The notes under the pieces are model-generated. The model ran no database searches, was not told the DNA's origin, and saw only the letters and a list, made by a program, of their open reading frames with translations. A DNA stretch of 64,000 nt from Escherichia coli (lineage in GTDB: Bacteria > Pseudomonadota > Gammaproteobacteria > Enterobacterales > Enterobacteriaceae): the NCBI RefSeq assembly GCF_003991155.1, contig NZ_CP031293.1. One strand, 5' to 3'. Below are positions 16,419 to 32,431 of this stretch, one piece after another. Positions within the stretch are counted from its first letter, which is position 1, and every line of letters begins with the position of its first letter. A program made the position numbers and the translations under genes.

Positions 16419-18322
16419 ACACCTCTTTATTTGAAGATCTACTTACACTAATCAAGAAAAAGAGTTCGATAAGGAATACAGAACAAGCAGTAGAGTTAAT
16501 TTCATTATTTATTTTTTTACATTATATAAAATTATATCTTTATGAAAATGATAAAAGATTTTCAGATATAAAAAACATATCAAGCAACAACATTAATGAA
16601 ATTAAATATTATTATCAGCAACTATATGAAAGTTTTATTTTCTCGATAGATATAAAAAATATAAACCACGACATGCTTGAAAAGCTCAGGAGTAAGATAG
16701 GTTTTTTAATTAATAACATCAATGACCATGAAATAATTAAATATATAGATTATTCTATTTCGCAGATACATTCACTTACAGAATTCTATCAATATGCAAA
16801 TTCTTATCAATCTTTAATTCTTAGGATGGTTAATGAATCGGGTCGTTCAGGTGAATATGTTACTCCATCTGCTTTAGTTCAGCTCATGGTTGAAATGTTA
16901 TCACCTACAGATGGCACATCAATCTACGACCCCGCATGTGGAACTGGGGGTTTATTAATAGAGTCAGCACGATATATTAAAGGCAACAGTTTAAACAAAA
17001 ACTTAAATTTAAATTATTCCCTTATTGGTAATGACACATCATCATTTGCCTGTCTAATCTCAATTGTTAACCTTTTAATCAATAAAGAATTTAATTTTGA
17101 AATAATACTAAAAGATAGCTTAGATATAAATTATAAGAATACAAAATATGACTTTATTTTAACTAACCCACCATTTGGGAAAAAGAGCGGTTGGGATAAT
17201 ATTCATATTGACACACATTATAAAGGACCTAATCTAGACTATTACTTCCTGGAGCATGTTATTGACTCTCTCGCTGTTAATGGCAAAGCAGCCATAATAT
17301 TACCAGAGCGTTTTTTATATGATGTGAGTAAAGAGTGCATCACTCTTAAAGATAAGATCTTCCAAAATTATAATTTAGATTGTATTTTATCTATACCGTC
17401 AGGTGCATTGCTTCCTTACACTGCAGTAAAATTATGTATTCTTTTTATAAGTAATCCTGGCCCAACAGATAGAATATTTTTCTACAATTTAAATAATGGT
17501 GAAAAATACTCACGTACAAATATTATAAAATTCGATGATTTTATAGATTTTTTAGAGTCAGCAAAAAATAGAACAATAACTGAACACTCCTGGATTATCA
17601 ATATTAGTGATACACCTTCATCTTATAACTTACTCTTAAAAGATAAAGAGCGAAACTCATATGAGTTTCTTAGTGATTCTATAGTTAACATTGAACAGAC
17701 AATACGTAATAATGAATTATTACTAACAGAGTTGTCTTTATTAAGAGAAAAAATAGCAATCTTAGAGTCAACAATAAAAAATCATTCGCATGAATATGAA
17801 TTTGAGAGACTTAAAGTTGGAAATATTGCAATAGTAAAATCCGGAAATTTATTACAAAAAAACAGGCTGTTACCCACTGGACCAATTCCTGTATACGGTG
17901 GAAATGGAGTTATTGGATATAACAATGAGGCAATGGTAAATGGTGAAAATATTATTATTGGTAAGGTCGGAGCTCTTTGCGGAAACGTTCGGTATGTTCA
18001 AGGTGATATTTGGGTGACAAATAACTCATTAATTATTAAGAATTATTTACCAAATAAAGTTTTAACACCCTACCTTGCAAAGTTATTATCTACTTTAAAC
18101 TTAAGAAAGCTCGCCGTTGGTACCGCTCAACAATATTTAACCACAACACAAATAAAAAATGTAGAAATTAGCATTCCACCTTTAACGACCCAGCATAAAT
18201 TAAATATGTGGCTTGATGAGTTAGATAATACCCTTGAACAATATAATAAGCTCATTGAAAAAATAATGAATGATAAGCGAGAACTTAAAGAGAATTTGTA
18301 TAAAGGTCTTTTAATAGAATAG
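16415..18322 (+). CDS. N6-adenine DNA methyltransferase (HsdM-like) fused to a single type I specificity (HsdS-like) target-recognition domain, 635 aa
   Basis: Motif I YDPACGTGGLL and motif IV LTNPPFGKK; C-terminal ~180 aa resemble an HsdS TRD plus conserved helix (...GKVGALCGNVRYVQGDIWVTNNSLIIK...); translationally coupled to the upstream ATPase. Confidence 0.75.
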   Translation: MNTSLFEDLLTLIKKKSSIRNTEQAVELISLFIFLHYIKLYLYENDKRFSDIKNISSNNINEIKYYYQQLYESFIFSIDIKNINHDMLEKLRSKIGFLINNINDHEIIKYIDYSISQIHSLTEFYQYANSYQSLILRMVNESGRSGEYVTPSALVQLMVEMLSPTDGTSIYDPACGTGGLLIESARYIKGNSLNKNLNLNYSLIGNDTSSFACLISIVNLLINKEFNFEIILKDSLDINYKNTKYDFILTNPPFGKKSGWDNIHIDTHYKGPNLDYYFLEHVIDSLAVNGKAAIILPERFLYDVSKECITLKDKIFQNYNLDCILSIPSGALLPYTAVKLCILFISNPGPTDRIFFYNLNNGEKYSRTNIIKFDDFIDFLESAKNRTITEHSWIINISDTPSSYNLLLKDKERNSYEFLSDSIVNIEQTIRNNELLLTELSLLREKIAILESTIKNHSHEYEFERLKVGNIAIVKSGNLLQKNRLLPTGPIPVYGGNGVIGYNNEAMVNGENIIIGKVGALCGNVRYVQGDIWVTNNSLIIKNYLPNKVLTPYLAKLLSTLNLRKLAVGTAQQYLTTTQIKNVEISIPPLTTQHKLNMWLDELDNTLEQYNKLIEKIMNDKRELKENLYKGLLIE

Positions 18323-18402: not shown

Positions 18403-21400
18403 TTAATAATGCTCCTCAATATACCCATACGCCTTCTGGAACAACTCTTTATCTTTCCCTAGTCCAAACTGGGCCAAGGTCAGTAAAAGCGCCTTTTGGA
18501 TTTCGCGCGGGCCACTGTTGGAATTTTGCCAGCCATCAAAGCGGGTAGCTTTCACAATTTTATCAATTTGCTCTACAACATCACCGATTAACTTAGGGGT
18601 AGTTTCCGGACGTGTTTCGAGGAAAAGCTTAGTCAACGCCTGTTTATTATCAGCTTCAGTTACTGGGCGCTCGCCCGTTTCGCGCTCGGCTTGAACGGTA
18701 TCTTTCGCTGCATCCAACAGGCCTTTCAACCAGTCAATGGCCTTGATAACACCAGCTTCATAGTCCTGACGCAGTTTTTCAAGGCGCTCGCCCAATGCCA
18801 CAAATTTAGGATCATGACTGCCGCGCAAACGTCCCATAAGATCAATCTCCAGGCGTTTGGCACGTTGTTCCTGCTCTTTAGCGGTCAGGGTAAAAATAGC
18901 GTGCTCGTCCATAACCAACTCGTCAATATCATCGCGAATACGATTGATATCAGTATGCTCATGGATCATCTTGATTGTTTCGGGGCCAAGGGCAGCCCAA
19001 ACAAGCGCACCTGTCTGCCCTACCGGACGCACCGATTCATAAATTTGCGCCAGCCATTTATAGTCCTGACGATAAGAGGTCAAAAAAGGATCTGGGTTGA
19101 TAGCTGACCATAACTTGGATAACACACCAAAGCTGGCAGCGAATTCATCGCGTTTCTCGTTGGTCGGCAGGCATTCCTGCGCGGCCATAATACCTTCAAA
19201 ACCAGCTATGGACCGATCCACACCAGGGAAGAAGGACAAACATTTATTCAGTTGTAACGGCAATAGCTCTTTAAATGCCTCAATTCCCTCTACAACTCCT
19301 TCAATTTCTTCAGGGTTATAGGCCAGAGCGGTACGCAGATTTTCGAAAACGCCGAGGTAGTCGATAATTAATCCCATGTCCTTGCGTACAGTATCGGTTT
19401 CGTACAACCGGTTGGTTCGGCACATGGCCTGAAGAAGAGTATGATCGCGTAGAGGCTTATCGAGGTACATGCAGTAGCAAATCGGGGCATCAAAACCCGT
19501 AAGCAGCTTGGCGGTTACGATAATAAGCTGTAATGGATGTTCAGGATCTTTAAAGCATTCAATCAGATCCTTTTGCACCTGTTCTTCGGCATCAATGTGC
19601 TGCCAGCGTTCAAAATCGACTTGTTTGACTGGCAGCTCCAACTCATCATGCCATTTAAGCCAATCCTTGTTGAGCTTGTCTTTTTTGCCACCCTCTTCAA
19701 CTTTAACCGGAGCCTGGTCAACGTTCATAACCACTTCAACCGCATCAAAACCAAGCTTTTCACCGAGCAAATAATACATCTGCACACAGGCTTCGCGATC
19801 GTATACCACAACCATGCCTTTCATCTTTTTCGGCATAACATGGTTGGTAAAATGCTCAGCAATATCATTACTCACCGCAGCCATACGCCTAGGGGATTTC
19901 AGCATGATTGCCAGCTTGCCTGCACGCCTGGACAATGCTGCTTTTTCTTCTTCATCCAGGTTGTTTTCGGTAGCCAGTTGCTCGAACTCTTCATTGATGG
20001 CATCACGATCCACTCGGAGTTCAGCCAGCCGAGGTTCGAACTTCACCGGGTTAGTTGCGCCATCCCGGATCGACTGCTTATAGCTATAGCGGCTCATATA
20101 GCGACCTGGATCTTCTTCGGCACCGAACAATTTGAACGTATTACGATCAATGCCAGAAATCGGAGTACCAGTCAGGCCATAGAAGTGGGCATTGGGCAAC
20201 GCCCAGCGCATTTTCTCGCCTAATCCCCCTTCCTGTGTACGGTGAGCTTCGTCAACCAACACAATGATATTGTCCCGGTTGTTCAGGCCATTAGGGTTGC
20301 TATCGTCAATTTCGATATCTTTAAATTTAAAGATGGTGGTGATTAAAATGCCACGGCTGTCTTGTTCTATGTATTCACCCAACTTTTTGCAGCTTTGCAC
20401 TTTAATCAGATTCTTAACGTCGGCTCCGCCAAAGGTCTCGTTAATTTGGCTGTCCAGATCTCGCCGGTCCACAACGATAAGTACCGTCGGGTTTTTTAAC
20501 GCATTATCGGCACGTAGCATTTTGGCGGCGTAAAGCATCAACAAGGATTTACCCGATCCCTGGAAATGCCAAATAAGACCTTTTTTTGGATAGCCTCTGC
20601 GAACACGCTCAACAATTTGTTTTGCAGCTTCAAATTGCGGATAACGCGGCAGGATTTTAACGCGTTTAGGTGGAGTATTTTTGCCCGTTTTGACGGTTGA
20701 AAATAATGCAAAAGATTCAAGTAACTGCAATAAGGTTTGTGGATTTAACAAACTCTCACAGCTGTTGAGTACCGATGCTAATCCCGGCAGAATTTCATCA
20801 CGAAGCTCAGTATTATGCCAGGGCCCCCAGTCTTTAACTCTGGCATTAATGGCACCATAGGCAAAGGTTTTTCCTTCGCTGGCAAAGCACAGCAAGTTAG
20901 GTACAAAGAAAGATTCAACATTTTTCCAGTAGTACTTTTTGCCACCCATGAAATCGGCAGCACCGTCTTGCCAGGTCACGCTGGGGCGTGTTGCGGTTTT
21001 AACTTCGCCCACTACTAGCGGTATGCCGTTCACATAAAGAACAATATCAAAATAGACTTCAGTGGCCGCGATATAGCGAACCTGCTGCGCCACCACAAAG
21101 TGGTTGTTCTCTATATTGTCAAAATCAATCAGATTGATGGTGATATGGTCGCCATTCTTACCAAAAGGCAAGGTTTTGTCGGCCATCAACCATTCCTGGA
21201 AGTTTTCATTGGCCTTTACCAAGCCGGTATGGCGGGCTTCTAAAACCACTCCTCGCAGTTTGTAAATGACCTCATCGGCATAGTCAGGCTGTCTGCCGAT
21301 ATCAGGGTTTAACGAACAAAGCGCGTCTTTTAGCCACTCATCAACGAAGATATCCTGCGCTTGTTTAGGCAGGTTTTCACCGTGGCAGTAAGTCCACTTG

Positions 21401-21465
21401 ACTCCGCTTAAACCTTTTAAACGGTCGATAATTCCATTTTCTGTGACGGTTTGTTCGTTAAACAA
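18403..21465 (-). CDS. hsdR: type I restriction enzyme R subunit (HsdR), 1020 aa
   Basis: N-terminal PD-(D/E)xK-like DIVLYVNGIPLVVGEVK; helicase motif I HFQGSGKS and DEAH box IVLVDEAHRTQ; directly follows hsdS. Confidence 0.9.
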   Translation of the reverse strand: MFNEQTVTENGIIDRLKGLSGVKWTYCHGENLPKQAQDIFVDEWLKDALCSLNPDIGRQPDYADEVIYKLRGVVLEARHTGLVKANENFQEWLMADKTLPFGKNGDHITINLIDFDNIENNHFVVAQQVRYIAATEVYFDIVLYVNGIPLVVGEVKTATRPSVTWQDGAADFMGGKKYYWKNVESFFVPNLLCFASEGKTFAYGAINARVKDWGPWHNTELRDEILPGLASVLNSCESLLNPQTLLQLLESFALFSTVKTGKNTPPKRVKILPRYPQFEAAKQIVERVRRGYPKKGLIWHFQGSGKSLLMLYAAKMLRADNALKNPTVLIVVDRRDLDSQINETFGGADVKNLIKVQSCKKLGEYIEQDSRGILITTIFKFKDIEIDDSNPNGLNNRDNIIVLVDEAHRTQEGGLGEKMRWALPNAHFYGLTGTPISGIDRNTFKLFGAEEDPGRYMSRYSYKQSIRDGATNPVKFEPRLAELRVDRDAINEEFEQLATENNLDEEEKAALSRRAGKLAIMLKSPRRMAAVSNDIAEHFTNHVMPKKMKGMVVVYDREACVQMYYLLGEKLGFDAVEVVMNVDQAPVKVEEGGKKDKLNKDWLKWHDELELPVKQVDFERWQHIDAEEQVQKDLIECFKDPEHPLQLIIVTAKLLTGFDAPICYCMYLDKPLRDHTLLQAMCRTNRLYETDTVRKDMGLIIDYLGVFENLRTALAYNPEEIEGVVEGIEAFKELLPLQLNKCLSFFPGVDRSIAGFEGIMAAQECLPTNEKRDEFAASFGVLSKLWSAINPDPFLTSYRQDYKWLAQIYESVRPVGQTGALVWAALGPETIKMIHEHTDINRIRDDIDELVMDEHAIFTLTAKEQEQRAKRLEIDLMGRLRGSHDPKFVALGERLEKLRQDYEAGVIKAIDWLKGLLDAAKDTVQAERETGERPVTEADNKQALTKLFLETRPETTPKLIGDVVEQIDKIVKATRFDGWQNSNSGPREIQKALLLTLAQFGLGKDKELFQKAYGYIEEHY

Positions 21466-21466
21466 T

Positions 21467-22633
21467 TTATTGTCCCCTCAGAAGAATATTCAAATAACTG
21501 GACTTGAGTTTACGAATTTTTTGAAGCCTTGATTTAGCTTCTCTATAACTGTTTTCGGCTAAATGTAATATATCCTTATATTTCCCAAGCTCTCTTGATG
21601 GTGGTATAACCATCTTCTGAGAATGTACATCGGCATCATTAACAGCCGGGAAACTTGTACCAACTGCCAAATTGGTTAATGAATAAGTGAATTGCTTCGA
21701 CAAAGTGAAATAATAAATAAAATCGGACAAATCATTTTTTGCCCTTAGAACAGTAAAACCTGTTGATGCTATTGAATCATTCAATATTTCAGACACATAA
21801 AACGTAGCTCTATGATTGGGTCTAACAGTGCTAACAACAATATCTTTTTCCTTAAGAATACGCCGAGCTCGGCTGGGGGCTTCAGCGAAATGGTATTCTT
21901 TAGGAGTATCGACAAAACCAGGAAAAGTCACTGAAGATATATCTATATACCTAATCAGCTTATTTTTATTGGCATCATTACTTAACAAGTCAAAATTAAT
22001 ATTTGATACATCCTTCAATCTAACTTTGTTATATCCAAATGGCAGTTTTTCTTTTCGATCAAATGTAGTCAACCGATCAATTAATCTTTGAAATAAATTT
22101 AATGCAGACCTTTCAGTCTCATTTGCACAATGTAATACTTGTTCGATTTTTTTTAAAGAATTTAAAAAATCAACTTGCAGATCCATTTCAGGAATAATAA
22201 ATTCCTGCTGACTTAAAACTTTCCATTTTATCGTTGGAGACAATGACCCCTCCGAAATTGCTACTGCACGATTCATGAAAGTATCAGACTGCATAATAAA
22301 GGGTAAAAACTCAGGTATTACAGTATTTGAATTTGCCTCCAGAACCATGGCATGAGCCGAACAGATACAATCCCAATCTGCTACCGCGACTTTACGTTGA
22401 TAAGCACGACGCTTACCAAAAATAATCTGGCCTTTTTTCACTAAAAGCTTCTGCCCTTCAACGTCACTGGGTGTACCATGACGTTTGATTTTCAGGCTGT
22501 CAGGGTCTAAATGCTCCAAACCGACATAAATTTCAAGGTCTGTCTCGCTCGGTTCCACTCGTTTAGAGATATGTTTAGCGATATCGCCAAACTTCACCAT
22601 TTGCCAGCCTTCAGGTAATTGCTGTTCTGTCAT
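21467..22633 (-). CDS. hsdS: type I restriction-modification specificity subunit (HsdS), two TRDs
   Basis: 388-aa protein with two variable regions separated by conserved spacer; second TRD coding region markedly AT-rich; abuts hsdM and hsdR. Confidence 0.85.
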   Translation of the reverse strand: MTEQQLPEGWQMVKFGDIAKHISKRVEPSETDLEIYVGLEHLDPDSLKIKRHGTPSDVEGQKLLVKKGQIIFGKRRAYQRKVAVADWDCICSAHAMVLEANSNTVIPEFLPFIMQSDTFMNRAVAISEGSLSPTIKWKVLSQQEFIIPEMDLQVDFLNSLKKIEQVLHCANETERSALNLFQRLIDRLTTFDRKEKLPFGYNKVRLKDVSNINFDLLSNDANKNKLIRYIDISSVTFPGFVDTPKEYHFAEAPSRARRILKEKDIVVSTVRPNHRATFYVSEILNDSIASTGFTVLRAKNDLSDFIYYFTLSKQFTYSLTNLAVGTSFPAVNDADVHSQKMVIPPSRELGKYKDILHLAENSYREAKSRLQKIRKLKSSYLNILLRGQ

Positions 22634-24133
22634 TTACTGCTCCACCTTGCTTTCAACGTTATATCCAAGCTCTGCAAGGCTCTGGAATAATTTATTAGTT
22701 TGCTTTTTCAACTGAGTACGGCTTACTTTCCACGCTTCAATCGCATGTTCAATATTATGTACTTCAGCGTTGTTTTGTGCTTGCACATACAGTGGAATTG
22801 AAAGGTTATAAAGGTTTTCTTTAATAGCTTCAATATTCACTAAAGAGGTTATATCGTTTTTTTTCTCCGGATTAAAATAAGCCTCGCATAATACCTCCAA
22901 ATCCTCATCGGATAAGCGACTATGAGCGCGTTCACGGGTAACATGCTCAACCCCGTTGATAAATAACACTTTATTTTTGCGTTCGGCAGGTTTATTGCAA
23001 TTAAGCACCACCACACAAGATTCCATCGGCGAGTTATAAAACAGATTTGGTCCCAAACCAATCACCGCTTCAATAATGTCCGATTCAATCACCTGTTTAC
23101 GAATGGCCTGCTCAGAATCACGGAACAGCACACCGTGTGGCCAGAGCATAGCAGCACGACCGGTATCGGGTTTTAAACTTTTAATTATATGGGTATAAAA
23201 AGCATAATCAGCGCAGCCCTGCGGTGGGACACCATAAAGATTTCGACCATACGGATCAGCAGCAAACTTGTCACGATTCCATTTTTTAATGGAGTACGGT
23301 GGGTTGGCAAAAATCACATCAAACTGCTTGAGCCGATCGTTTTCAATAAACTTTGGCTCAGCCAAAGTATCACCACGCAGCACATCAAACTCTTCAATAT
23401 CGTGCAGGAACATATTCATACGGGCGATTGCGGATGTCAGCAGGTTCACTTCCTGACCATAAAGGTGCACAGAGCGCCACTCTTCCCCTCTAGCACGCAG
23501 ATCCATCACTGCATTTAGCAACATCCCACCTGTGCCACACGTTGGATCATAGGCGGTTTCACCCGGTTTTAAGCCCATAATGCGCGTCATTAAATGCACG
23601 ACTGTTCGGTTGGTGTAGAACTCTGCTGCCGTATGACCGGAATCATCAGCGAACTTTTTAATCAGGTATTCGTAGGCCTCACCAAGATCATCCTGAGCGA
23701 CAGATTTAATGCCTAGCGGAATTTGACTGAAATGTTCAATCAGATCAGCCAGCAGATGATCGGGCAGGCGCTCTTTATTGGTCCACTGCGCATCACCGAA
23801 GACGCCATGTAAACGCGGATTATTGGCTTCAATTAGTCGAAGCGCATTCTGGATCGCTTCACCAATGTTTTTACTGGTATTGCGTACCTTTTCCCAACTG
23901 GCTTCAGAGGGAATGTTGAAACGGTGAAACATCGGCATGGCGGCATATTCAGCATCACCTTCATGGAGTTCCAGCGCTTCGTTATATTCTTCCAGATAGA
24001 CATCTGACAGGCGTTTGTAAAACAGCAACGGGAAGATATACTGCTTGTAGTCTGATGCGTCAATTTGGCCACGAAGAAATTCGGCGGCTCCCCAGAGCAG
24101 CTCTTCCAGCTTTTTATTACTCATAGTACTCAT
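22634..24133 (-). CDS. hsdM: type I N6-adenine methyltransferase subunit, paralogue B (499 aa)
   Basis: Motif I YDPTCGTGGMLL, motif IV FANPPYSIKKW; start overlaps stop of upstream hsdM paralogue (24130-24133). Confidence 0.85.
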   Translation of the reverse strand: MSTMSNKKLEELLWGAAEFLRGQIDASDYKQYIFPLLFYKRLSDVYLEEYNEALELHEGDAEYAAMPMFHRFNIPSEASWEKVRNTSKNIGEAIQNALRLIEANNPRLHGVFGDAQWTNKERLPDHLLADLIEHFSQIPLGIKSVAQDDLGEAYEYLIKKFADDSGHTAAEFYTNRTVVHLMTRIMGLKPGETAYDPTCGTGGMLLNAVMDLRARGEEWRSVHLYGQEVNLLTSAIARMNMFLHDIEEFDVLRGDTLAEPKFIENDRLKQFDVIFANPPYSIKKWNRDKFAADPYGRNLYGVPPQGCADYAFYTHIIKSLKPDTGRAAMLWPHGVLFRDSEQAIRKQVIESDIIEAVIGLGPNLFYNSPMESCVVVLNCNKPAERKNKVLFINGVEHVTRERAHSRLSDEDLEVLCEAYFNPEKKNDITSLVNIEAIKENLYNLSIPLYVQAQNNAEVHNIEHAIEAWKVSRTQLKKQTNKLFQSLAELGYNVESKVEQ

Positions 24134-25629
24134 ACCTCGAAACCTTCTTTGATAAGCAGGGCCTCCAGCTCCTCTTCTGCTTTTTCCAGCTCAGCCAGCT
24201 TCCGTTGAAAATCTTTGAGCGCCTCTTCCACAGTGATGGTTTCTTCTTCGAGTGGCTTTTGCACATAACGAGCAATATTTAGATTGAAGTCATTTTCTTC
24301 AATCTCCTTCAGAGAAACCCAGCGTGCAACGCCTTCGATTTCTTTTGCATCTGGCCCTTGTTGCGCCTGGTCATGATAGATTTGGTATATTTCATCGGCC
24401 TGCTTGTTGGACAGCGTATTCTGCGCACGTCCCTTGGTATAGATTTCTTCAGCATTGATGATCAATACATGATCTTTATGCGCGGCCGGACGTGATTTAC
24501 GCAGCACCAAAATACACGCAGGAATCCCAGTCCCATAGAACAGGTTGGAAGCAACACCAATAATCGCCACAATGCGATTCTCTTGCAGTAATTTGGTTCG
24601 AATTGCCCCCTCTGCGCCGCCACGAAACAGCACACCATGAGGTAATACGACTGCCATACGTCCATTGTCGTTAAGTGAAGCAAACATATGCTGCACCCAG
24701 GCAAAATCACCATTTGTTTTAGGCGCCAGGCCATATTGCTTACGGCCATAGGGATCGTTCGACCACAGATCGTATCCCCATTCTTTTAAGCTAAATGGTG
24801 GGTTGGCAACAACGCAGTCAAAGGTTTCTAAACGATCGCTTTTTAAAAATTTAGGTTCGCGTAAAGTATCCCCTCGGACAATATCGAAATCTTCCTGTCC
24901 ATGCAGGAACAGATTCATACGCGCAATAGCTTCCGTCGTTAAGTTCTTTTCCTGACCCTTGATTTTTAGTAAACGCGGATCACCACCATTTTCTTTTACA
25001 TGGTGGATGGTCTCAAGCAGCATACCACCGGTACCACAGGCGGGATCGTAGACACTCTCACCGGCTTTTGGATCAAGAATGTTAACCATCAAACGAACGA
25101 TAGTTCGTGGGGTATAGAACTCACCGGCTTTCTTATTGGCTTTGTCTGCAAAGCGTTTGATCAGATACTCGTATGCGCGCCCCATATCATCGTCACGGAC
25201 ACTAGAAACGCCAAGGTTCACCTTATTGAAGTGATTGAGTAACGTAGCCAGTAACTCATCAGAAAGGCGTTCTTTATTGGTCCAGCTGGCATCGCCAAAA
25301 ATGCCATGCAGTTTAGGGTTTGCCAGTTCTATACCACGGAAGGACTCTTTTAAAGCCTGACCGATGTCCTTGGTCTCAGCGAAAACATCGCGCCAGTGGC
25401 AATTTTCAGGTATCTGAATACGGTGAAACATCTTGCCCTTGGCAAGCTCTGCATCCCCAATGCTCTCCATCGCATCGGCAAATTCTTCGTCATACACGTC
25501 ACAAATGCGCTTGAAGAACAGGATGGGGAAAATGTACGTTTTGTAATCTGACGCATCAATGGGCCCTGTAATAATATGGGCTGCATGCCATAGATGGGCC
25601 TCGAGATCTTTTAGGTTAATCAGTGTCAT
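24130..25629 (-). CDS. hsdM: type I N6-adenine methyltransferase subunit, paralogue A (500 aa)
   Basis: ORF 24130..25731 trimmed to MTLINLKDLEAHLW; motif I YDPACGTGGMLL, motif IV VANPPFSLKEW; homologous over full length to paralogue B. Confidence 0.85.
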   Translation of the reverse strand: MTLINLKDLEAHLWHAAHIITGPIDASDYKTYIFPILFFKRICDVYDEEFADAMESIGDAELAKGKMFHRIQIPENCHWRDVFAETKDIGQALKESFRGIELANPKLHGIFGDASWTNKERLSDELLATLLNHFNKVNLGVSSVRDDDMGRAYEYLIKRFADKANKKAGEFYTPRTIVRLMVNILDPKAGESVYDPACGTGGMLLETIHHVKENGGDPRLLKIKGQEKNLTTEAIARMNLFLHGQEDFDIVRGDTLREPKFLKSDRLETFDCVVANPPFSLKEWGYDLWSNDPYGRKQYGLAPKTNGDFAWVQHMFASLNDNGRMAVVLPHGVLFRGGAEGAIRTKLLQENRIVAIIGVASNLFYGTGIPACILVLRKSRPAAHKDHVLIINAEEIYTKGRAQNTLSNKQADEIYQIYHDQAQQGPDAKEIEGVARWVSLKEIEENDFNLNIARYVQKPLEEETITVEEALKDFQRKLAELEKAEEELEALLIKEGFEV

Positions 25630-25872
25630 TGTTGTCTCTTTTCGATCCTGCAGTGCTTGAACTCTCAGCAACTCATGGATTTCACAGTAAAAAAGCAAGT
25701 AAAGCGATTCCACAACCACCTGAGCGTTCAATATGTATGACGCCTTTACCCAAGTTGCTTAAATCAAGGAAATTGCCAGAGATAATACTCTGGCATCAGA
25801 ATGATACCAAGTTGAAGGGCTGATTTCCGCATCAATACCTTGTGGTAATAGGGGATTACTCTTTTACCCTTA

Positions 25873-26910
25873 TTGGCGCAAAATGGCGGCATTTCCTCAT
25901 TTCTCCATCGGAGCATCTTACGCGCTATAACCACTCTCGTTTTTTCCTATTCCCATGCAGATGAAGCACTACGCAATGAACTTGAGAAGCATCTCTCCCC
26001 GCTGAAGCGAACCGGGAAGATCACAACATGGCACGATCGCCGCATCGTTCCTGGTCAGGAGTTCGAACGTCAGATCGACCACTATTTTTCGCAAGCAGAT
26101 ATCATCCTGATCCTGATCAGCAGTGACTTTATTGCTTCTGATTACTGCTATCAGGTAGAGATGAAAAACGCACTGGAACGGCATAACCGGGGCGAGGCAG
26201 TGGTCATTCCGGTAATTTTAAGAGACTGTGCATGGCATCAGTTAGAATTCGGCAGCATTATGGCGGCGACTATCGACGGTAAACCCATCACTAAGTTTGC
26301 CACCCACGATGAAGGCTACGTTCAGGTCGTCGAGGCTGTCTCGCGTGCCATTGCCCGGATGGAAGCCAAAAAACCACAGCAAACCATACATATCCCTTCA
26401 CCGGCTCCGGCGAATCCGATCTTTCAGGGAGTAGATTCCGTTTTTACACCGCGTTCAAGCAACCTTACTCTACCCAAGAAATTTACCGATCTGGATAAAG
26501 ATCGTGCCAGACGTGAGGGCTTTGAATATGTTGCCCGCTATTTTGAAAATTCGTTAGATGAACTCAAAAAGCGCCACCCCGGATTAGATATCGATTTTAA
26601 TCGGCTTGATACAGATTCATTCACCTGTGCCGTGTATATCAATGGCAGTAAGGTCGGCCAATGTGGCATCTGGCGAGGCAATCAACATCATGGAATGGGA
26701 GATATCTGTTATAGCCAGGATAATGTTGTTCGAAACAGTATTAACGAAACTCTAAGCCTTGCTGATAACGGCCAGACTCTTGGTTTTCGTGCTCTGATGG
26801 GAGGCTTCAGTCGAGGAACTTCACGAGACGAACTATTGACCAATGAAGGTATGTCGGAACATCTCTGGGAAATGTTCTTCGGGCTAATCAAGCAAAGAAT
26901 GTCCCGATAA
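25873..26910 (+). CDS. TIR-domain protein with uncharacterised ~180-aa C-terminal domain
   Basis: TIR-like N-terminus (VFSYSHADE..., WHDRRIVPGQEF, ADIILILISSDFIASDYCYQVEM with a Glu at the expected catalytic position); only in-frame start is TTG at 25873 and no clear Shine-Dalgarno, so the N-terminus is uncertain. Confidence 0.65.
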   Translation: MAQNGGISSFLHRSILRAITTLVFSYSHADEALRNELEKHLSPLKRTGKITTWHDRRIVPGQEFERQIDHYFSQADIILILISSDFIASDYCYQVEMKNALERHNRGEAVVIPVILRDCAWHQLEFGSIMAATIDGKPITKFATHDEGYVQVVEAVSRAIARMEAKKPQQTIHIPSPAPANPIFQGVDSVFTPRSSNLTLPKKFTDLDKDRARREGFEYVARYFENSLDELKKRHPGLDIDFNRLDTDSFTCAVYINGSKVGQCGIWRGNQHHGMGDICYSQDNVVRNSINETLSLADNGQTLGFRALMGGFSRGTSRDELLTNEGMSEHLWEMFFGLIKQRMSR

Positions 26911-26925
26911 TTTGCCATATCACAG

Positions 26926-26947
26926 TCGGGCATACTGCCCGATTTTT
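26926..26947 (+). terminator. rho-independent terminator downstream of the TIR gene
   Basis: Stem TCGGGCA/TGCCCGA with 3-nt loop followed by TTTTT. Confidence 0.65.
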
Positions 26948-27094
26948 GTGCTGTCATTATTGGCAATATCTCAATAGGCGTTGAGAAATGGTGCAATTTA
27001 ATCTTGCCAGAGCGCTGTTACTTGGGGACGAAATTAATGGGCTCCTGCTGTAGTTACAGCAACGCCTGTAAATACAAAAATAGGCGTTGCAAAT

Positions 27095-28150
27095 TCATGC
27101 TGGCAAATACGTTTTCTTAAGCGGCACCAATAGCTTAGTCTCTATATCCACTTGCTCATAGTTTTCAACTAACGCGCGTACCAAATCATCCAGCGTCCAT
27201 AGCGTCAACGGGATTGTAGAACGATCGGCCTCATAACGCGCATCCTTGCTGAATCCGCCGGTACTGACATACAGCCCGCGATCGTCTTTATGGCGGCCAC
27301 CGATAAAGCTACGGATTTGCTGGCTGCTCATCTGTTCCCGCCGGTGCTTCACCTCAACAATAATGCGCGGATTTTCAAACCCAAATCCGTCAGGCGAAGC
27401 AATGATGTCTTTCCCACGGTCAGCACCCGCAGGCGATACCTGAGTTTTATATCCCATGCTGCGTAACACGCCAGCGACCAGATTCTGCATCTCATCCCAG
27501 TCGAGACGGTTGATACGATCCTTGATGCCTTCAAAAGCGATCATTTCCATGTCGCGCAGAGGATTAGAAACGACCTCATCCTCTTCACCTGAAACAGGTA
27601 CTTCCGGCACGATATCTGAGACAGGCTTATTGCCCTGCACTAATTCATTCACAGCAAAATCAGGCACCTGAAAAACTGTCAGCGTTGAACCAAGGGTGTT
27701 TCTAGTTGCATCACTCAGACTATCGCGCTTAATCTCTTCCGCATTCCACTTCACTTTACGGGCGATGCCCATGCCATCTTCAAGCCACTCGGCATGAAAC
27801 TCAAAATCTGACGCTATTTTCCCTATTAAATAGGTCCGATTAGAAGGTGAATAAGTGATAGCCCAGTCGCCTTTCTGCATTTCATTCACAAAGCGCCAGA
27901 CCTGAGAAGCTCCAGAACGAACTGTGCCTGGCTTAGTCTGTGGCTCAAGCTCCTGATACCGGGTAAACAACTGCTCTCTTGAGCATCCAGGTTTCACATA
28001 GGGAGCGAGCTGCGACCAACCAATTGCAACAACCTGTTTGTCTCTGAAGTCGTCGTACAATTTTCCGCCATCACCGCGGATCATCCACATCTTAGTCGCC
28101 ACAATAATTCCTTCTGAAAATACTTCATCGTTATACCGGGACGTGATCAT
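27095..28150 (-). CDS. Mrr-family (PD-(D/E)xK) restriction endonuclease with N-terminal PUA/EVE-like putative modified-base reader; probable type IV enzyme
   Basis: C-terminal domain alignable with E. coli Mrr catalytic region (DIIASPDGFG...IIVEVKHRR...LYVSTGGFS); start set at ATG 28150 preceded by AAGGTGG; N-terminal RFVNEMQKGDWAITYS resembles EVE-domain core. Confidence 0.7.
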   Translation of the reverse strand: MITSRYNDEVFSEGIIVATKMWMIRGDGGKLYDDFRDKQVVAIGWSQLAPYVKPGCSREQLFTRYQELEPQTKPGTVRSGASQVWRFVNEMQKGDWAITYSPSNRTYLIGKIASDFEFHAEWLEDGMGIARKVKWNAEEIKRDSLSDATRNTLGSTLTVFQVPDFAVNELVQGNKPVSDIVPEVPVSGEEDEVVSNPLRDMEMIAFEGIKDRINRLDWDEMQNLVAGVLRSMGYKTQVSPAGADRGKDIIASPDGFGFENPRIIVEVKHRREQMSSQQIRSFIGGRHKDDRGLYVSTGGFSKDARYEADRSTIPLTLWTLDDLVRALVENYEQVDIETKLLVPLKKTYLPA

Positions 28151-28212
28151 TCCATTCAGCCACCTTATCCAGGGGAAAAACACCGATAAGATGGCTAATC
28201 AAAATGTCTGTT

Positions 28213-31200
28213 CTAAACCTGACGCCTATCAAGACTATTATAAATAGCCTCAATCTCACCTTTCAGGTTATCACCAGAGTAAACCATCGATGTATCGTAT
28301 CGTTCATATCGCGCTTCCCGTGTCGCACTAAACCAGTTGAACGATCCCACGCATAGCAAACCATCATCACCAATAACAATTTTGCTATGAACACGGTTTA
28401 CCAGCTTTGTAGCAATACCCAGCGCATTCAGTTTCTCCAGCGCCGCTTTAAGGTTCTGCTGCTTCTCTTTTCGCTTCTCAAAATCTTTATGTTCAGTGTT
28501 GTAGCTTCTGTCAGTGACTATCGTGACGTTAATACCACGTGAACACGCCGCAATCATGGAATCAAGAAAACCCGTTTGCTCCAGCTTTTGCCAGGTCAGC
28601 CATGGAGAAACTATCGTGATGTGTTTATCGGTATTTTCAAACGTCTGATTCAGGAAGTTATCATGCTGCTCCACACCATGAAGTGTGTAGATTTTGGTCT
28701 CGGAAGTTTTTAAATCCTTACGCTCTTTATAATCAAAAGAGAGCGCATTCTTCTCGAACTCAAAGAGATATTTTGCCAGCAATCCTCGCGGAGATGAGGG
28801 AGCCTGGATCTCAAACAGATCCATATCGCCGAAGACCAGGAAGCTATCCTTCGCACGGGAGACTGCAACATTCAGCATGCTGTTATCGCTATCAATAAAC
28901 CCGCCGTCTTCATGTTTTGAATAGACTGGCGAGAATATAACAATCGCTCTTTCCGCTCCCTGAAGAGAGTGCACGGTGCCCACTGTGAGCGACTTTTCAT
29001 TCGCGCCCGTACTGATACCTTGTTTACCCAGCGCCTGTTTTATAGTGGATACCTGCGCGCTAAAAGGCGTCACGATACCGACAACTTCATGAAGCGATTT
29101 GCCGTAATGCGCTTCAATATTTTGCTGGTTCTCTGCCAACCAGGCCGCTATCGTTTCAGCCTCAAGCAAATTATATCTACTTCCACTACTTGCCTGCTCT
29201 CCTTTACCATCAATATGGAGATAACCCATTGCGGGCATTAAATTGCTCTCTTCACGCCCTCTTTTAGGCAACAACTTACCGTGATAGCAGAGCGTATTAC
29301 AGTATCCAATAATATTATCGAAGCACCGGCGGTGTTCATATAGGTACATACCACGAGCCAGTTCGGGATCATATTGATAGCGCGAAGCAAACTGCGCTAT
29401 TTTCATAACGCTGCCAGATGCGGCACTTTTACCAAGGTCTGCGATTGCCGTATATTTCTCGGTAATCTCTTCTTGCGTACTGCCAGACAGAATTTTTTCC
29501 GCCAGCATGTTACCGACATCAATCGCGGGAGCAATACTCCATATTGGCGGGATCTGCTCCGTATCGCCAATCACTAATGCCTTCTTAGCTAATGCAAACG
29601 AGGCAGCAGCCACTTCAGGAAGCACCTGCCCGGCTTCATCGACAATGAGTAAATCGGCAAAATCATACAAATAACTTTTCTCGAATTTACGTTGTCCTTT
29701 GTGCTCACTTATCTGCATATTGCCGGGCAGCATATAGCATGTCATCACCACACATGGAGTGAGTTTCATTCGACGTTGCCAACGGGCGGTTACCCCTTTA
29801 GCGCCTTGTTTCTTCTTCTCTTCCTGCAGATCATCAATTCTGGCCATATCCATCAGCCAACGACCTTCCCAGTAGTGAGTCGTCAGTAAAAATGCAGGGA
29901 AGCGAATCTGCGTATCAGCCAGTTCATCGGCCTGTGAGAAGCTCAGTTCCTCGTCGCCCTCATACCCTAAATCAAATGCCAGCCTCTGCCACTCCTGAAC
30001 CGCCTGCTGTTCTTTAAGAACGATTTCATGGGCGGAGTCAATCTGCTGCCGGTATGTTGTTTGCTCGCGCTCAGCGGAATTGAGCAGCCCATCAATATTA
30101 CGTTCGATAGTTTCAGGATCAGACCACTGATTTCCTGCAATCAGCGCGCCTAATTTATCTTCGAGAAACAGCTGTATTTGGTACTGTCGCTTATTGCGAA
30201 CCGCCGGGAGCCAGGAAAATAATGAATAGATCAGTGATTCACCGGCGCGATATTTTTTCCATTCCGTTTTAGCACTCTTCAGTAGAGTGACTTTTTGTTC
30301 TTGTCCGGAAAGTAATTTATTTAAATTATCGAGATATTGCTCAATATCATTAGCAATAAGCTCACGCGCAGCCCGAATCTGGCTTAACATTTGCCATGTT
30401 GCGTTCAGTCTTATCAGTTGCTCGGATTTTGCTGCCAACTGACCATGCAGGAGTTCAATGATCTTTTCAGGGGATGAACACTCTTTTTCAGGAAAGGCTG
30501 CCTTAGCCTTCTCCAGATAAAACAGCAGTGCATCCTCTACATACTCTTTTGACTCAACCTGGGTGAAGAAATCTTCAGTTTGATATTTTTTGGCTGCCTC
30601 AGCTTTACGAGTGCTTGAGGGAAAATAAGCGCCGAAGCTTTTCAGCTCTGGCAACCATCGTCCGGCCATCGCACCTGAACCTTGCGAAAAGTCTTTCCCG
30701 AATGCCTCAATAATGTTCGTTACAGCCTGGTTATTCGTTGAAGTCGCGATAATAACCGGAGGCTCAGATTTTTCGAGAGCTGCTCTGGCCCACTGCGTGG
30801 CGATGATAGAAAGCACCAGCGTGGTTTTTCCGGTTCCCGGAGGTCCATTAACAGCAAGGATATCGCCATGTCTTGCATCCAGAAAATGGCTTAAGGCATC
30901 GCGCTGAGCCTTTGCCAGCGGAAACTTATCTCCGGAGTGTCCAAGCCTGTCGCTGAATTTTGCTCCTGGGGCCAGCAAAGACTCTGCAGCATGAACCTCT
31001 CGCGAGGCGAAGCGATTGAAGAGCGGCACATCCTTCTTGCAAACAAGCAGGTGATCATAAAGAGAAAGGATATGGAAACTGGCACCGCCAGATTGCGCCG
31101 TTTTAACAATATAACCGTGCTCAGCGAGTACATATTGCTCAGGATTTTTAATCCAGTCGCCGGCAACATTCTTCAGCAGCCTCTCTGAATCATCCAGATA

Positions 31201-31728
31201 TTGACGCCACTCCTGCTGCAAGGCTGCATATCGTGCTTCCCGTTCTTCATCCGTTTCGGCAGTCTTATCAATGCTGTCATCAAAGTTGATAGAGAACGAG
31301 GTATGGATTGTCTTGTATTTGTCATACTGCCCAATATCACCAATCGAAAATGCTCCTTTTGGCAAAGGTTCAAGCAGGTCTCTGGGAATGGAGGTCGCTG
31401 GCGTCGGATATAAAAAACCCTCACGGCTTAGCAAGGCTGGCGTCACTAGCGGGGTAACAATATCAGGTGCGCCTGCGGAACGGTCCTTACCATGCTGCAG
31501 TAACCGAAAATAAACTTTTGGGCGCAAGACGACATCGACCGTTTCGACATCGTCTTTTTCTCCCTCAAAAAATTTACTGACAATCGCTTCGTCAAGACGT
31601 CCCGCCGCTATCCCATGCCAGTGAGTGAAATTTTTGGCGTCTTTCCGTTCAAAACTGCCCTTTCCTGACTCAGCATCTGCAAGCGAGTTGCGCCAGTATG
31701 AGGCAAACCCTAAAGCATTTTCATCCAT
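28213..31728 (-). CDS. SF1 (Upf1/DNA2-like) helicase fused to C-terminal PLD-family nuclease, 1171 aa; architecture resembles type II Mokosh
   Basis: Walker [13 protein letters not shown], Walker [10 protein letters not shown], helicase motifs [16 protein letters not shown] and [12 protein letters not shown]-terminal HKD motif [20 protein letters not shown]. Confidence 0.75.
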
Positions 31729-32053: not shown

Positions 32054-32431
32054 CTATCGTTTTGTCCGATGCTTGCGAATAAAAGCATTCAAAATGTCGC
32101 CTTCACCATGCATGACAGAAAAAGAATATTCACATTCTTTCTTTATCAAGATTCCACATAATTCCTGGTGCAAATCAACATTAACTCCCTTTCCTTTCTG
32201 CGCTTTCTTCACACCGAGCTCACATGAACTGATTAATTCAACGTTACAGGGTTTCTTCAAACAATTCACACCATCAATTAAGCCATGGAGAATGCATCTA
32301 TTTGCGGTCGTATCACTGTAGGAGAAAGTCAGATATTTTATTTTTCCTTCGCATTCCAGCACAATTTCCGCCGAACCTTCACGTGTTGCAGCATCACAAC
32401 CTCCTGTTGAATATATTTTTACCATCTTCAT
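32054..32431 (-). CDS. small RNase HI-like protein (125 aa) lacking the catalytic acidic residues
   Basis: Alignable by eye with E. coli RNase HI (VKIYSTGGC vs VEIFTDGSC; TTANR vs TTNNR; NVDLHQEL vs NVDLWQRL) but D10, E48, D70 positions are T, I, S/C; good SD (AAGGGG) before ATG. Confidence 0.6.
   Translation of the reverse strand: MKMVKIYSTGGCDAATREGSAEIVLECEGKIKYLTFSYSDTTANRCILHGLIDGVNCLKKPCNVELISSCELGVKKAQKGKGVNVDLHQELCGILIKKECEYSFSVMHGEGDILNAFIRKHRTKR

What the first reader, a model, noticed from the sequence alone, without database searches (positions are those of the whole stretch)
25873..26910. Solitary TIR-domain protein with unknown C-terminal domain and a non-ATG start
The TIR core motifs are present, including a Glu at the expected catalytic position (...SDYCYQVEM...), followed by ~180 aa with no recognisable motif. 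No ThsA-like SIR2/SLOG partner, cyclase or reverse transcriptase is nearby, so this is not a canonical Thoeris, CBASS, Pycsar or retron arrangement. The only in-frame start is TTG at 25873 with no evident Shine-Dalgarno, so the gene may have a damaged 5' end. It is followed by a clean intrinsic terminator.
Basis: partly seen in the sequence, partly recalled or inferred. Interest (0 to 1): 0.6.

Follow-up and report, generated by a model that had tools for sequence, protein, structure and literature searches.

The report
Start-codon-dead TIR defence gene copy
This is a real TIR-domain immune-type gene from a widespread but untested family, but in this E. coli lineage its ATG start has mutated to ATA and its small partner gene is deleted, so it is most likely a silenced, decaying copy rather than a working new defence system.

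Summary
The ORF at 25873-26910 is real, and its N-terminal half is a canonical TIR domain with the catalytic Glu conserved. The C-terminal about 150 aa is not motif-free: it is Pfam PF27176 ("Y4lF"), a frataxin-like alpha/beta sandwich found almost only fused to TIR.

The family is large and spread across phyla. It sits in defence islands next to type I R-M, BREX, Mokosh, SIR2-HerA and type VI retrons. No ThsA, cyclase or other universal partner accompanies it.

The true start, by homology, is 25927. Relatives have ATG, TTG or GTG there; this E. coli lineage has ATA. The TTG at 25873 is only the mechanical ORF start.

The 93%-identical Salmonella island has ATG plus a tightly linked 102-aa downstream gene. 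Here a 336-bp deletion leaves 18 homologous codons of that gene.

All 100 E. coli genomes with this allele keep its 5' end, and all six alleles read share ATA. Forty-two also carry a frameshifting 232-bp deletion. Others carry a 1-bp deletion or nonsense codons.

Polymorphism within the lineage is 16 nonsynonymous to 6 synonymous, against 17:28 fixed versus Salmonella (p = 0.01).

Verdict: a recently silenced copy of an uncharacterised TIR-sensor defence gene. Interest is modest.

The parts
25927..26910 (+). TIR-Y4lF coding sequence as defined by homology (327 codons plus TAA stop); RefSeq WP_024179470.1
   Evidence: PGAP annotation of the identical sequence. In the 40-sequence alignment the first aligned residue is Met or a GTG/TTG start in every other sequence. 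PADLOC ThsB model position 2 aligns to ORF residue 20.
25927..25929 (+). Mutated initiation codon ATA (ATG in close relatives with an identical upstream sequence)
   Evidence: Salmonella L096, Hafnia L016, Citrobacter L037, Mixta L032, Enterobacter L006 and E. coli allele L012 all have ATG after ...ggagcatcttacgc(g/a)ct. None of 80 species-level loci has ATA. All 6 sampled alleles of this E. coli lineage have ATA.
25873..25926 (+). In-frame 18-codon leader from the TTG; the mechanical ORF start, not part of the protein in relatives
   Evidence: Most relatives have a stop codon in this frame 14 codons before the ATG. The open frame is shared with the ATG-bearing Salmonella allele, so it predates the ATA mutation. 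No Shine-Dalgarno precedes the TTG (sequence).
25911..25914 (+). GGAG Shine-Dalgarno-like element 12 nt upstream of the homologous start
   Evidence: Sequence; conserved in the enterobacterial relatives.
25927..26370 (+). TIR domain (residues 1-148) with catalytic Glu78 at 26158-26160
   Evidence: Pfam TIR_2 9e-14. The AF2 model has pLDDT above 90. Foldseek hits include MAL, RPS4, AbTir, SPARTA and Cat1 TIR domains. The best PDB sequence hit is Cat1 at 5.7e-12. E78 is conserved in 39/40 sequences.
26371..26451 (+). Low-complexity, poorly conserved linker (residues 149-175)
   Evidence: pLDDT is about 44-54. Mean pairwise identity is 11%, against 49% for the TIR domain.
26452..26907 (+). C-terminal Y4lF domain (PF27176), frataxin-like helix/6-strand sheet/helix, beginning with the conserved RSSNL motif
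26924..26950 (+). Intrinsic terminator-like hairpin plus T-run
   Evidence: also present in the Salmonella island.
26988..27053 (+). Remnant (21 codons) of the 102-aa partner gene; 336-bp deletion junction at 27041/27042
   Evidence: BLAST and alignment against Salmonella L096. tblastn matches residues 1-18 only in the window, L001, L010 and L011, but the full length in 9 other enterobacterial taxa. Translation.

Best explanation
The gene is a copy of a widespread, experimentally uncharacterised bacterial immune-type gene. It encodes an N-terminal TIR NAD+-cleaving domain joined by a floppy linker to a C-terminal frataxin-like 'Y4lF' domain.

The inferred mechanism for intact relatives is as follows. 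The protein sits idle in the cytoplasm. The Y4lF domain, in some lineages together with a small adjacent protein such as the 102-aa one, detects a phage cue. The TIR domains then self-associate into composite active sites that use Glu78 to cleave NAD+. The infected cell stops supporting phage growth (abortive infection).

In this window the system is most likely switched off. The ancestral ATG start is now ATA, and AUA initiates at roughly 1-2% of AUG in E. coli. The partner gene has been deleted. Sister strains carrying the same allele have gone on to accumulate frameshifts, a large deletion and stop codons.

Shown directly: the domain identities, the start-codon change, the partner deletion, the decay in the lineage, and the defence-island context.

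Inferred only: NADase activity, phage sensing by the Y4lF domain, and the loss of expression.
For: TIR identity and conserved catalytic Glu.

Y4lF domain and its fold.

Defence-island context. In the window the gene lies between a type I R-M system and Mrr-like PDC-S02, MkoC and HNH genes. Elsewhere it lies by SIR2-HerA and RmrA. In 21 of 80 loci it is next to type I R-M. In 6 loci it sits inside BREX. In 7 loci it follows a type VI retron.

No universal partner: 34 of 80 loci have no same-strand neighbour within 120 bp.

Start codon: ATA here, against 62 ATG, 9 TTG and 6 GTG in 80 species. The upstream sequence is identical in the ATG-bearing relatives.

AUA initiates at 1-2% of AUG, range 0.02-3% (bioRxiv 10.1101/063800).

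Partner loss: 336-bp deletion. The partner is strictly linked to TIR-Y4lF in Salmonella, Klebsiella, Yersinia, Enterobacter and others.

Decay. 100 of 5426 E. coli genomes carry this 5' end. 42 of them lack 26471-26702. L010 has a 1-bp deletion. PGAP flags PCN033 and 7CC as 'frameshifted; internal stop'. Within-lineage polymorphism is 16 N (including 3 nonsense) to 6 S, against fixed differences of 17 N to 28 S; Fisher p = 0.0096.
Against: This particular allele still has an intact 327-codon frame, with no nonsense or frameshift. It is identical in about half of the carrier genomes, although they may be clonal.

ATA and the upstream TTG can both initiate weakly. A toxic NADase might need only trace expression.

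No expression data exist here. No member of the family has, to my knowledge, been tested for NADase or anti-phage activity.

The MK-style contrast rests on only five sampled alleles.

The fixed differences (17 N : 28 S) show the gene was under purifying selection for most of its history. Silencing is therefore recent, and its consequence is not proven.
Confidence: 0.68

Rival explanations
1. The gene is functional as it stands. The ATA at 25927 (or the TTG at 25873) gives deliberately low translation of a dangerous NADase, much as infC uses AUU. The window carries a working single-gene abortive-infection system.
For: The 327-codon frame is intact. PGAP calls it a normal CDS from the ATA. The SD-like GGAG is retained. 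Near-cognate codons do initiate at about 1-2%. Many family members stand alone without an operon partner.
Against: None of 80 species-level homologues uses ATA. At least 42 of 100 genomes with the same allele have additional disabling lesions. Polymorphism within the lineage looks neutral, including three nonsense codons. The linked partner gene present in the nearest relatives is deleted.
Confidence: 0.17
2. It is an orphan Thoeris ThsB. The TIR makes a nucleotide signal that activates a ThsA-type effector encoded elsewhere in the genome.
For: The best PADLOC hit is a ThsB model over its full length, 2e-153. ThsB families are very diverse (bioRxiv 10.64898/2026.01.22.701046).
Against: No ThsA-like protein (SIR2-SLOG, Macro-TM, SLOG or caspase) is among the ten flanking ORFs. 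None appears as a recurrent neighbour in 80 species-level loci or in the other contexts read. Foldseek's top PDB hits are canonical TIRs and include no ThsB structure. A remote receptor gene would be unprecedented for Thoeris.
Confidence: 0.06
3. It is a host-directed virulence TIR protein, like TcpC or BtpA, that interferes with animal TLR/MyD88 signalling.
For: E. coli and Salmonella do carry such TIR mimics (background knowledge). The fold resembles MAL/MyD88 TIRs.
Against: The family is spread through free-living Nostoc, Acidobacteria, Geobacter, Halomonas, Rhizobiales and marine Rhodobacterales. It is embedded in R-M, BREX and retron loci. No secretion signal or transmembrane segment is seen. 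The catalytic Glu is under strong conservation.
Confidence: 0.03

Closest known systems
Thoeris ThsB (TIR signal-generating component)
   Same: TIR protein in a defence island. It matches the PADLOC ThsB model PDLC00420 end to end. A conserved catalytic Glu is present.
   Different: No ThsA effector is present in the window or in any of more than 90 related loci. It carries a dedicated C-terminal Y4lF domain. It is often solitary, or paired with small unrelated ORFs.
Cat1 (CRISPR-associated TIR-CARF NADase, PDB 9mud)
   Same: It is the best solved-structure sequence match to the TIR domain, 5.7e-12. It has the same N-terminal TIR plus C-terminal regulatory domain layout and a similar size (263 vs 327 aa).
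   Different: The C-terminal domain here is a frataxin-like sandwich, not a CARF Rossmann-like fold. There is no type III CRISPR context. The ligand, if any, is unknown.
[quoted passage not shown] 2024, PMC11350192)
   Same: These are chromosomal E. coli one-gene TIR systems. Their unannotated non-TIR part senses phage structural proteins such as portal or tail fibre. Defence depends on the TIR active site and is abortive-infection-like.
   Different: [quoted passage not shown] That suggests a C-terminal TIR, the opposite order to this protein. The accession list is not available, so identity with any tested cluster could not be checked.
TIR-SAVED / TIR-STING CBASS effectors and SPARTA TIR-APAZ
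   Same: The TIR NADase is held inactive by a fused sensor domain and activated by oligomerisation. There is a weak PADLOC hit to SAVED_TIR at 1e-8. SPARTA and TIR-STING appear among the fold hits.
   Different: No cyclase or Argonaute partner is present. The sensor domain is unrelated to SAVED, STING or APAZ.
Frataxin / CyaY / Nqo15 fold
   Different: Identity is only 7-16%. There is no Pfam or PDB sequence match. Nothing suggests a role in iron-sulfur biology; this is a fold resemblance only.

Membership tests
TIR domain superfamily (enzymatic NADase-type TIR) | Sequence match to TIR profile models | tested here: met
   Pfam TIR_2 9e-14 and TIR 2e-7; PDB profile hits to Cat1, TLRs and plant TIRs.
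TIR domain superfamily (enzymatic NADase-type TIR) | Flavodoxin-like TIR fold | tested here: met
   The AF2 model is confident over residues 1-148. Foldseek probability is 1.00 to MAL, RPS4, AbTir, SPARTA and Cat1 TIRs.
TIR domain superfamily (enzymatic NADase-type TIR) | Conserved catalytic glutamate | tested here: met
   E78 is present in 39/40 homologues and aligns with the Glu of Cat1's DELEQA segment.
TIR domain superfamily (enzymatic NADase-type TIR) | NAD+ cleavage activity | not testable with these tools
   Needs a biochemical assay.
Thoeris (types I-IV) | TIR-domain ThsB-like protein | tested here: met
   PADLOC ThsB PDLC00420, 2e-153, 317 of 319 model positions.
Thoeris (types I-IV) | Adjacent ThsA effector (SIR2-SLOG, Macro-TM, SLOG or caspase-like), as defined in bioRxiv 10.64898/2026.01.22.701046 | tested here: not met
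   PADLOC scan of the ten flanking ORFs finds only R-M, PDC-S02, MkoC, HNH and ATPase. No such neighbour recurs in 80 loci.
Pfam PF27176 (Y4lF) TIR-associated C-terminal domain family | Match to the PF27176 model | tested here: inconclusive
   The label is precomputed on homologues 64-95% identical over the full length. The Pfam copy available for direct scanning lacks this model. Membership follows from 95% identity to P0001.
CBASS / Pycsar | Adjacent oligonucleotide or cyclic-nucleotide cyclase | tested here: not met
   No cyclase among the neighbours.
Retron with TIR effector | Adjacent retron reverse transcriptase | tested here: not met
   None in the window. Seven Rhodobacterales relatives do lie directly after HTH_VI + RT_VI.
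Pseudogene / silenced gene | Loss of the canonical initiation codon relative to orthologues | tested here: met
   ATG>ATA at 25927.
Pseudogene / silenced gene | Frameshift or premature stop in this copy | tested here: not met
   The window allele has an intact 327-codon frame. Sister alleles do carry such lesions.
Pseudogene / silenced gene | Relaxed selection in the lineage carrying the lesion | tested here: met
   16 N: 6 S polymorphisms against 17 N: 28 S fixed, p = 0.0096. 42 of 100 genomes have the 232-bp deletion.
Pseudogene / silenced gene | Absence of protein expression | not testable with these tools
   Needs Ribo-seq or proteomics.
Frataxin/CyaY family | Sequence-profile membership | tested here: not met

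The most novel reading that the evidence does not exclude
TIR-Y4lF and the strictly linked 102-107-aa protein form an undescribed two-component defence module. The small protein would restrain or tune a frataxin-fold-gated TIR NADase, in a toxin/antitoxin-like way.

In the E. coli lineage the 336-bp deletion of the partner would have made the TIR protein harmful. That would have selected for the ATG>ATA start-codon knock-down seen in the window. The locus would then be a natural record of forced silencing of an immune effector.
Probability: 0.2. Interest if true: 0.55.

Novelty: new member of a known kind. Interest (0 to 1): 0.3.

Why it matters
For this window, the practical point concerns annotation and interpretation. 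The RefSeq CDS is called from an ATA codon and looks intact. Comparative evidence says it is a silenced remnant, so it should not be counted as an active defence system. It should also not be cloned 'with native promoter' as a representative of its family, because a negative phage screen on this allele would be uninformative.

For the family, there are about 3,400 50%-identity clusters at E < 1e-30, in many phyla. The work defines a two-domain architecture, TIR plus a frataxin-like Y4lF domain. It also defines the true N-terminus, a conserved RSSNL motif and lineage-specific small partners. Recurrent placement inside R-M, BREX and type VI retron loci gives concrete constructs for testing a probably new phage-sensing domain.

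Tried and rejected
A 10-sequence alignment worked.
- Sequence searches for the C-terminal domain gave nothing significant: PDB profile and Pfam. The available Pfam copy lacks PF27176.
- Profile search of the big protein database with the C-domain alignment returned mostly fragments. It revealed no new fusion partners beyond the rare CHAT and guanylate-cyclase cases seen by Foldseek.
- The full-text search for 'Y4lF' found no paper.
- Wang et al. 2024 tested 32 E. coli TIR clusters, but the accession table (Supplementary Data 2) is not held. I could not tell whether this family was tested or is one of TIR-V, TIR-VI or TIR-IX.
- PADLOC, NCBIfam and Pfam gave no annotation for the 102-aa partner or for the other small neighbour families.
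- Rfam found no RNA family in 25600-27200.
- I considered a compensatory upstream start. The open frame back to the TTG at 25873 is shared with the ATG-bearing Salmonella allele, so it is not a response to the ATA mutation.
- I considered RosmerTA membership, because of a weak RmrT hit at E = 0.048 and RmrA neighbours. I rejected it: in those loci RmrA pairs with its own 239-aa gene on the opposite strand.

Full report
**Where the window is.** The window is E. coli chromosome. The finding lies in a variable defence island between nanS and the leuX tRNA-Leu gene. PADLOC scans of the ten ORFs flanking the finding place the following genes in that island:
- an AAA ATPase and an HsdM/HsdS-like ORF (14685-18322);
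- a type I R-M operon with hsdR, hsdS and two tandem hsdM paralogues (18403-25731, minus strand);
- the finding itself (plus strand);
- a convergent Mrr-like gene, PADLOC candidate PDC-S02 (27095-28183);
- a full-length MkoC, Mokosh type II (28213-31728);
- a 125-aa ORF and an HNH endonuclease.

None of these is a ThsA, a nucleotide cyclase or a reverse transcriptase.

**The observation.** The 345-codon ORF 25873-26910 exists.
- Pfam TIR_2 matches at 9e-14 and TIR at 2e-7 over ORF residues 24-131.
- A 40-sequence profile's best solved-structure hit is the TIR domain of Cat1, the CRISPR-associated TIR NADase (5.7e-12). Animal and plant TIRs follow.
- An AlphaFold2 model (mean pLDDT 88.6) has a confident TIR fold for residues 1-148. 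Residues about 150-185 form a disordered linker, and a confident second domain follows.
- Foldseek against the PDB returns MAL, RPS4, AbTir, SPARTA and Cat1 TIR domains.
- The terminator is real by the simple criteria: a 9-bp stem plus T-run at 26924-26944, -15.9 kcal/mol, z = -4.1.

**The C-terminal half.** It is not unrecognisable.
- Homologues from 64% to 95% identity carry the recent Pfam family PF27176, 'Y4lF'.
- The PADLOC ThsB model PDLC00420 covers the whole protein at 2e-153.
- Modelled alone, the domain is confident (pLDDT 89, pTM 0.84): a long helix, a six-stranded antiparallel sheet and a C-terminal helix.
- In AFDB50 the domain occurs almost exclusively behind a TIR domain. Rare exceptions are annotated as CHAT-domain or guanylate-cyclase-domain proteins.
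- Across the family, mean pairwise identity is 49% for the TIR domain, 35% for the Y4lF domain and 11% for the linker. The C-domain begins with a conserved RSSNL motif.

**The family and its neighbours.** The family is large.
- 3,431 representatives of 50%-identity clusters match at E < 1e-30. Most of the best ones are 305-345 aa and collinear with the query.
- A scan of one genome per species returned 423 confirmed loci. The 80 kept span Gamma-, Beta- and Alphaproteobacteria, Cyanobacteria, Acidobacteria, Verrucomicrobia, Planctomycetota, Bacteroidota and Desulfobacterota.

I called ORFs within 8 kb of each gene and clustered them. No neighbour is universal.
- The commonest neighbours are type I R-M subunits, in 21 of 80 loci.
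- Six loci place the gene inside a type I BREX cluster, between pglX and pglZ; BrxC was confirmed.
- Seven Rhodobacterales loci place it directly after a type VI retron, HTH_VI + RT_VI.
- Other contexts include SIR2-HerA, RmrA/RosmerTA and MkoC fragments.
- 34 of 80 loci have no same-strand gene within 120 bp on either side.
- The rest have one of several unrelated small ORF families immediately adjacent.

This is the signature of a self-contained defence-island gene with lineage-specific accessories. It is not the signature of Thoeris, which by definition pairs ThsB with a ThsA effector.

**The start codon.** All 39 other sequences in the alignment begin 2-4 residues before the FSYSH strand. 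In window coordinates that is 25927.
- At that codon, 62 of 80 species-level loci have ATG, 9 have TTG and 6 have GTG. The other three alignments begin a few codons later. None has ATA.
- The window has ATA.
- The preceding 19-20 bases (ggagcatcttacgcgct) are identical in Salmonella, Hafnia, Mixta and Citrobacter, which all read ATG. The change is therefore a clean G>A transition in the initiation codon.
- PGAP nevertheless annotates the CDS from this ATA, as WP_024179470.1, 327 aa.
- The TTG at 25873 is simply the first canonical start after a stop. It has no Shine-Dalgarno.
- The open upstream frame is shared with the ATG-bearing Salmonella allele, so it is not compensatory.
- In E. coli reporters, AUA initiates at 1-2% of AUG, with a range of 0.02-3% across constructs (bioRxiv 10.1101/063800).

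**The missing partner.** The nearest ATG-bearing relative is P0001 from Salmonella enterica, 95% identical at the protein level. It sits in the same island, about 93% identical in DNA and with the same gene order. The one difference is a 102-aa ORF 77 bp downstream of the TIR gene on the same strand.
- The window retains that ORF's ATG and 18 homologous codons (26988-27041).
- A 336-bp deletion then joins it to the sequence before the Mrr-like gene. The remnant reads MVQFNLARALLLGDEINGLLL*.
- The small gene lies directly after TIR-Y4lF genes, with gaps of 16-83 bp and at 58-81% identity, in Salmonella, Enterobacter ludwigii, Rouxiella, Chimaeribacter, Serratia quinivorans, Hafnia, Erwinia, Pantoea and Enterobacillus.
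- Starting instead from its own homologues, it is again found directly after a TIR-Y4lF gene in Klebsiella pneumoniae, in another Salmonella locus and in Yersinia, with otherwise different flanks.
- It has no Pfam, PADLOC or NCBIfam annotation.

It is therefore a genuine, strictly linked partner in this subclade. It is dispensable family-wide, because many members lack it.

**Decay in the lineage.**
- Exactly 100 of 5,426 complete E. coli genomes carry this allele's 5' end at 99% identity or more.
- All six alleles I read (window, L010, L011, L093, L094, L095) have ATA. L001, L010 and L011 also show the partner deletion.
- Only 58 of the 100 retain the segment across 26471. The other 42 have a 232-bp deletion, 26471-26702, which shifts the frame.
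- L010-type alleles have a 1-bp deletion at 26577. PGAP then calls a 238-aa protein from the TTG.
- PGAP marks the PCN033 and 7CC copies as pseudogenes, 'frameshifted; internal stop'.
- Among five alleles there are 22 polymorphic coding sites. Sixteen are nonsynonymous, including Q56*, E107* and Q167*, and six are synonymous. Fixed differences from Salmonella are 17 nonsynonymous to 28 synonymous. Fisher p = 0.0096.

So the gene evolved under purifying selection until recently. It has drifted since the lineage acquired the ATA and the partner deletion. The window's allele is the least damaged form: its frame is intact.

**Interpretation.** The best-supported reading is that the locus is a recently silenced copy of a TIR-Y4lF defence gene (confidence about 0.68 for silenced or non-functional).

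For intact relatives I commit to an abortive-infection NADase model. The Y4lF domain, with small partners in some lineages, gates TIR self-association in response to a phage cue, and Glu78-dependent NAD+ cleavage follows. The grounds are:
- the conserved catalytic residue;
- the N-terminal TIR plus C-terminal regulator layout shared with Cat1, TIR-SAVED and TIR-STING;
- the absence of any receptor-type partner;
- the precedent of one-protein E. coli TIR systems that sense portal or tail-fibre proteins (PMC11350192).

That mechanism is inference. No member of the family has been assayed as far as I could find.

**Rivals.**
- A functional weak-start gene (0.17).
- An orphan ThsB signalling to a remote ThsA (0.06).
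- A host-directed TIR mimic (0.03).

**Novelty and interest.** The gene is annotated in RefSeq. Its family has Pfam and PADLOC models. Its general kind, a bacterial TIR effector fused to a sensor, is well known. I file it as a new member of a known kind.

New here are the correct N-terminus, the start-codon loss, the deleted partner, the population-level decay, the frataxin-like fold of the Y4lF domain and the R-M/BREX/retron-VI associations.

A specialist would find the family mildly interesting as an untested sensor domain. The copy in this window is not, except as a caution against treating it as active.

Noticed in passing
window 22634-25731 (minus strand): The type I R-M operon carries two tandem hsdM paralogues, 499 aa each and 47% identical, both with NPPY/NPPF motifs. 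They lie ahead of one hsdS and one hsdR. The Salmonella island has the same layout.
   Followed up: partly
window 14685-18322 (plus strand): An AAA ATPase (AriA/PtuA-like) is followed by a 635-aa ORF that combines a type I methyltransferase with a specificity-subunit domain. In strain LWY24, PGAP splits this ORF into two CDSs. It may be a separate ATPase-plus-MTase defence module.
   Followed up: no
window 28213-31728 (minus strand): Full-length MkoC, the helicase + PLD protein of single-gene Mokosh type II (PADLOC E = 0, 1169 of 1171 aa).
   Followed up: partly
window 27095-28183 (minus strand): A Mrr-like nuclease matches the PADLOC candidate single-gene system PDC-S02 (1e-82). Its homologue carries Pfam DUF8426 + Mrr_cat. 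It is convergent with the TIR gene.
   Followed up: partly
window 32054-32431 (minus strand): A 125-aa ORF matches only the N-terminal half of RNase HI (NCBIfam NF001236, 1e-10, residues 1-69). It may be a truncated or divergent RNase H-like gene beside an HNH endonuclease.
   Followed up: no
window about 26098-26112: An in-frame ATCCTG hexamer repeat inside the TIR coding region (encoding the IILILI strand) varies among E. coli alleles: +12 bp in PCN033 and 7CC, -6 bp in WP4-S18-ESBL-07.
   Followed up: partly
L055, L057, L069, L079, L084, L088, L091 (Rhodobacterales), e.g. L055 928-3123: A complete type VI retron (HTH_VI + RT_VI) sits directly upstream of, and roughly abuts or overlaps, the TIR-Y4lF gene. 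This suggests the TIR protein may serve as an added effector of type VI retrons there.
   Followed up: partly
L033-L041 (Pseudomonas flavescens, Halomonas, Marinobacter, Osedax symbiont): The TIR-Y4lF gene is inserted inside type I BREX clusters between pglX and pglZ. In some of these loci a 101-aa ORF lies immediately upstream.
   Followed up: partly
L102-L105 (Klebsiella pneumoniae, Salmonella enterica): A BrxR-like WYL regulator lies divergent from a putative three-gene unit: a 171-aa ORF, TIR-Y4lF and the 106-107-aa partner.
   Followed up: no
window 25911-25929 and relatives: The enterobacterial members keep an unusually long spacing of 12-13 nt between the GGAG and the start codon. This may be a built-in way of keeping translation low.
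   Followed up: no
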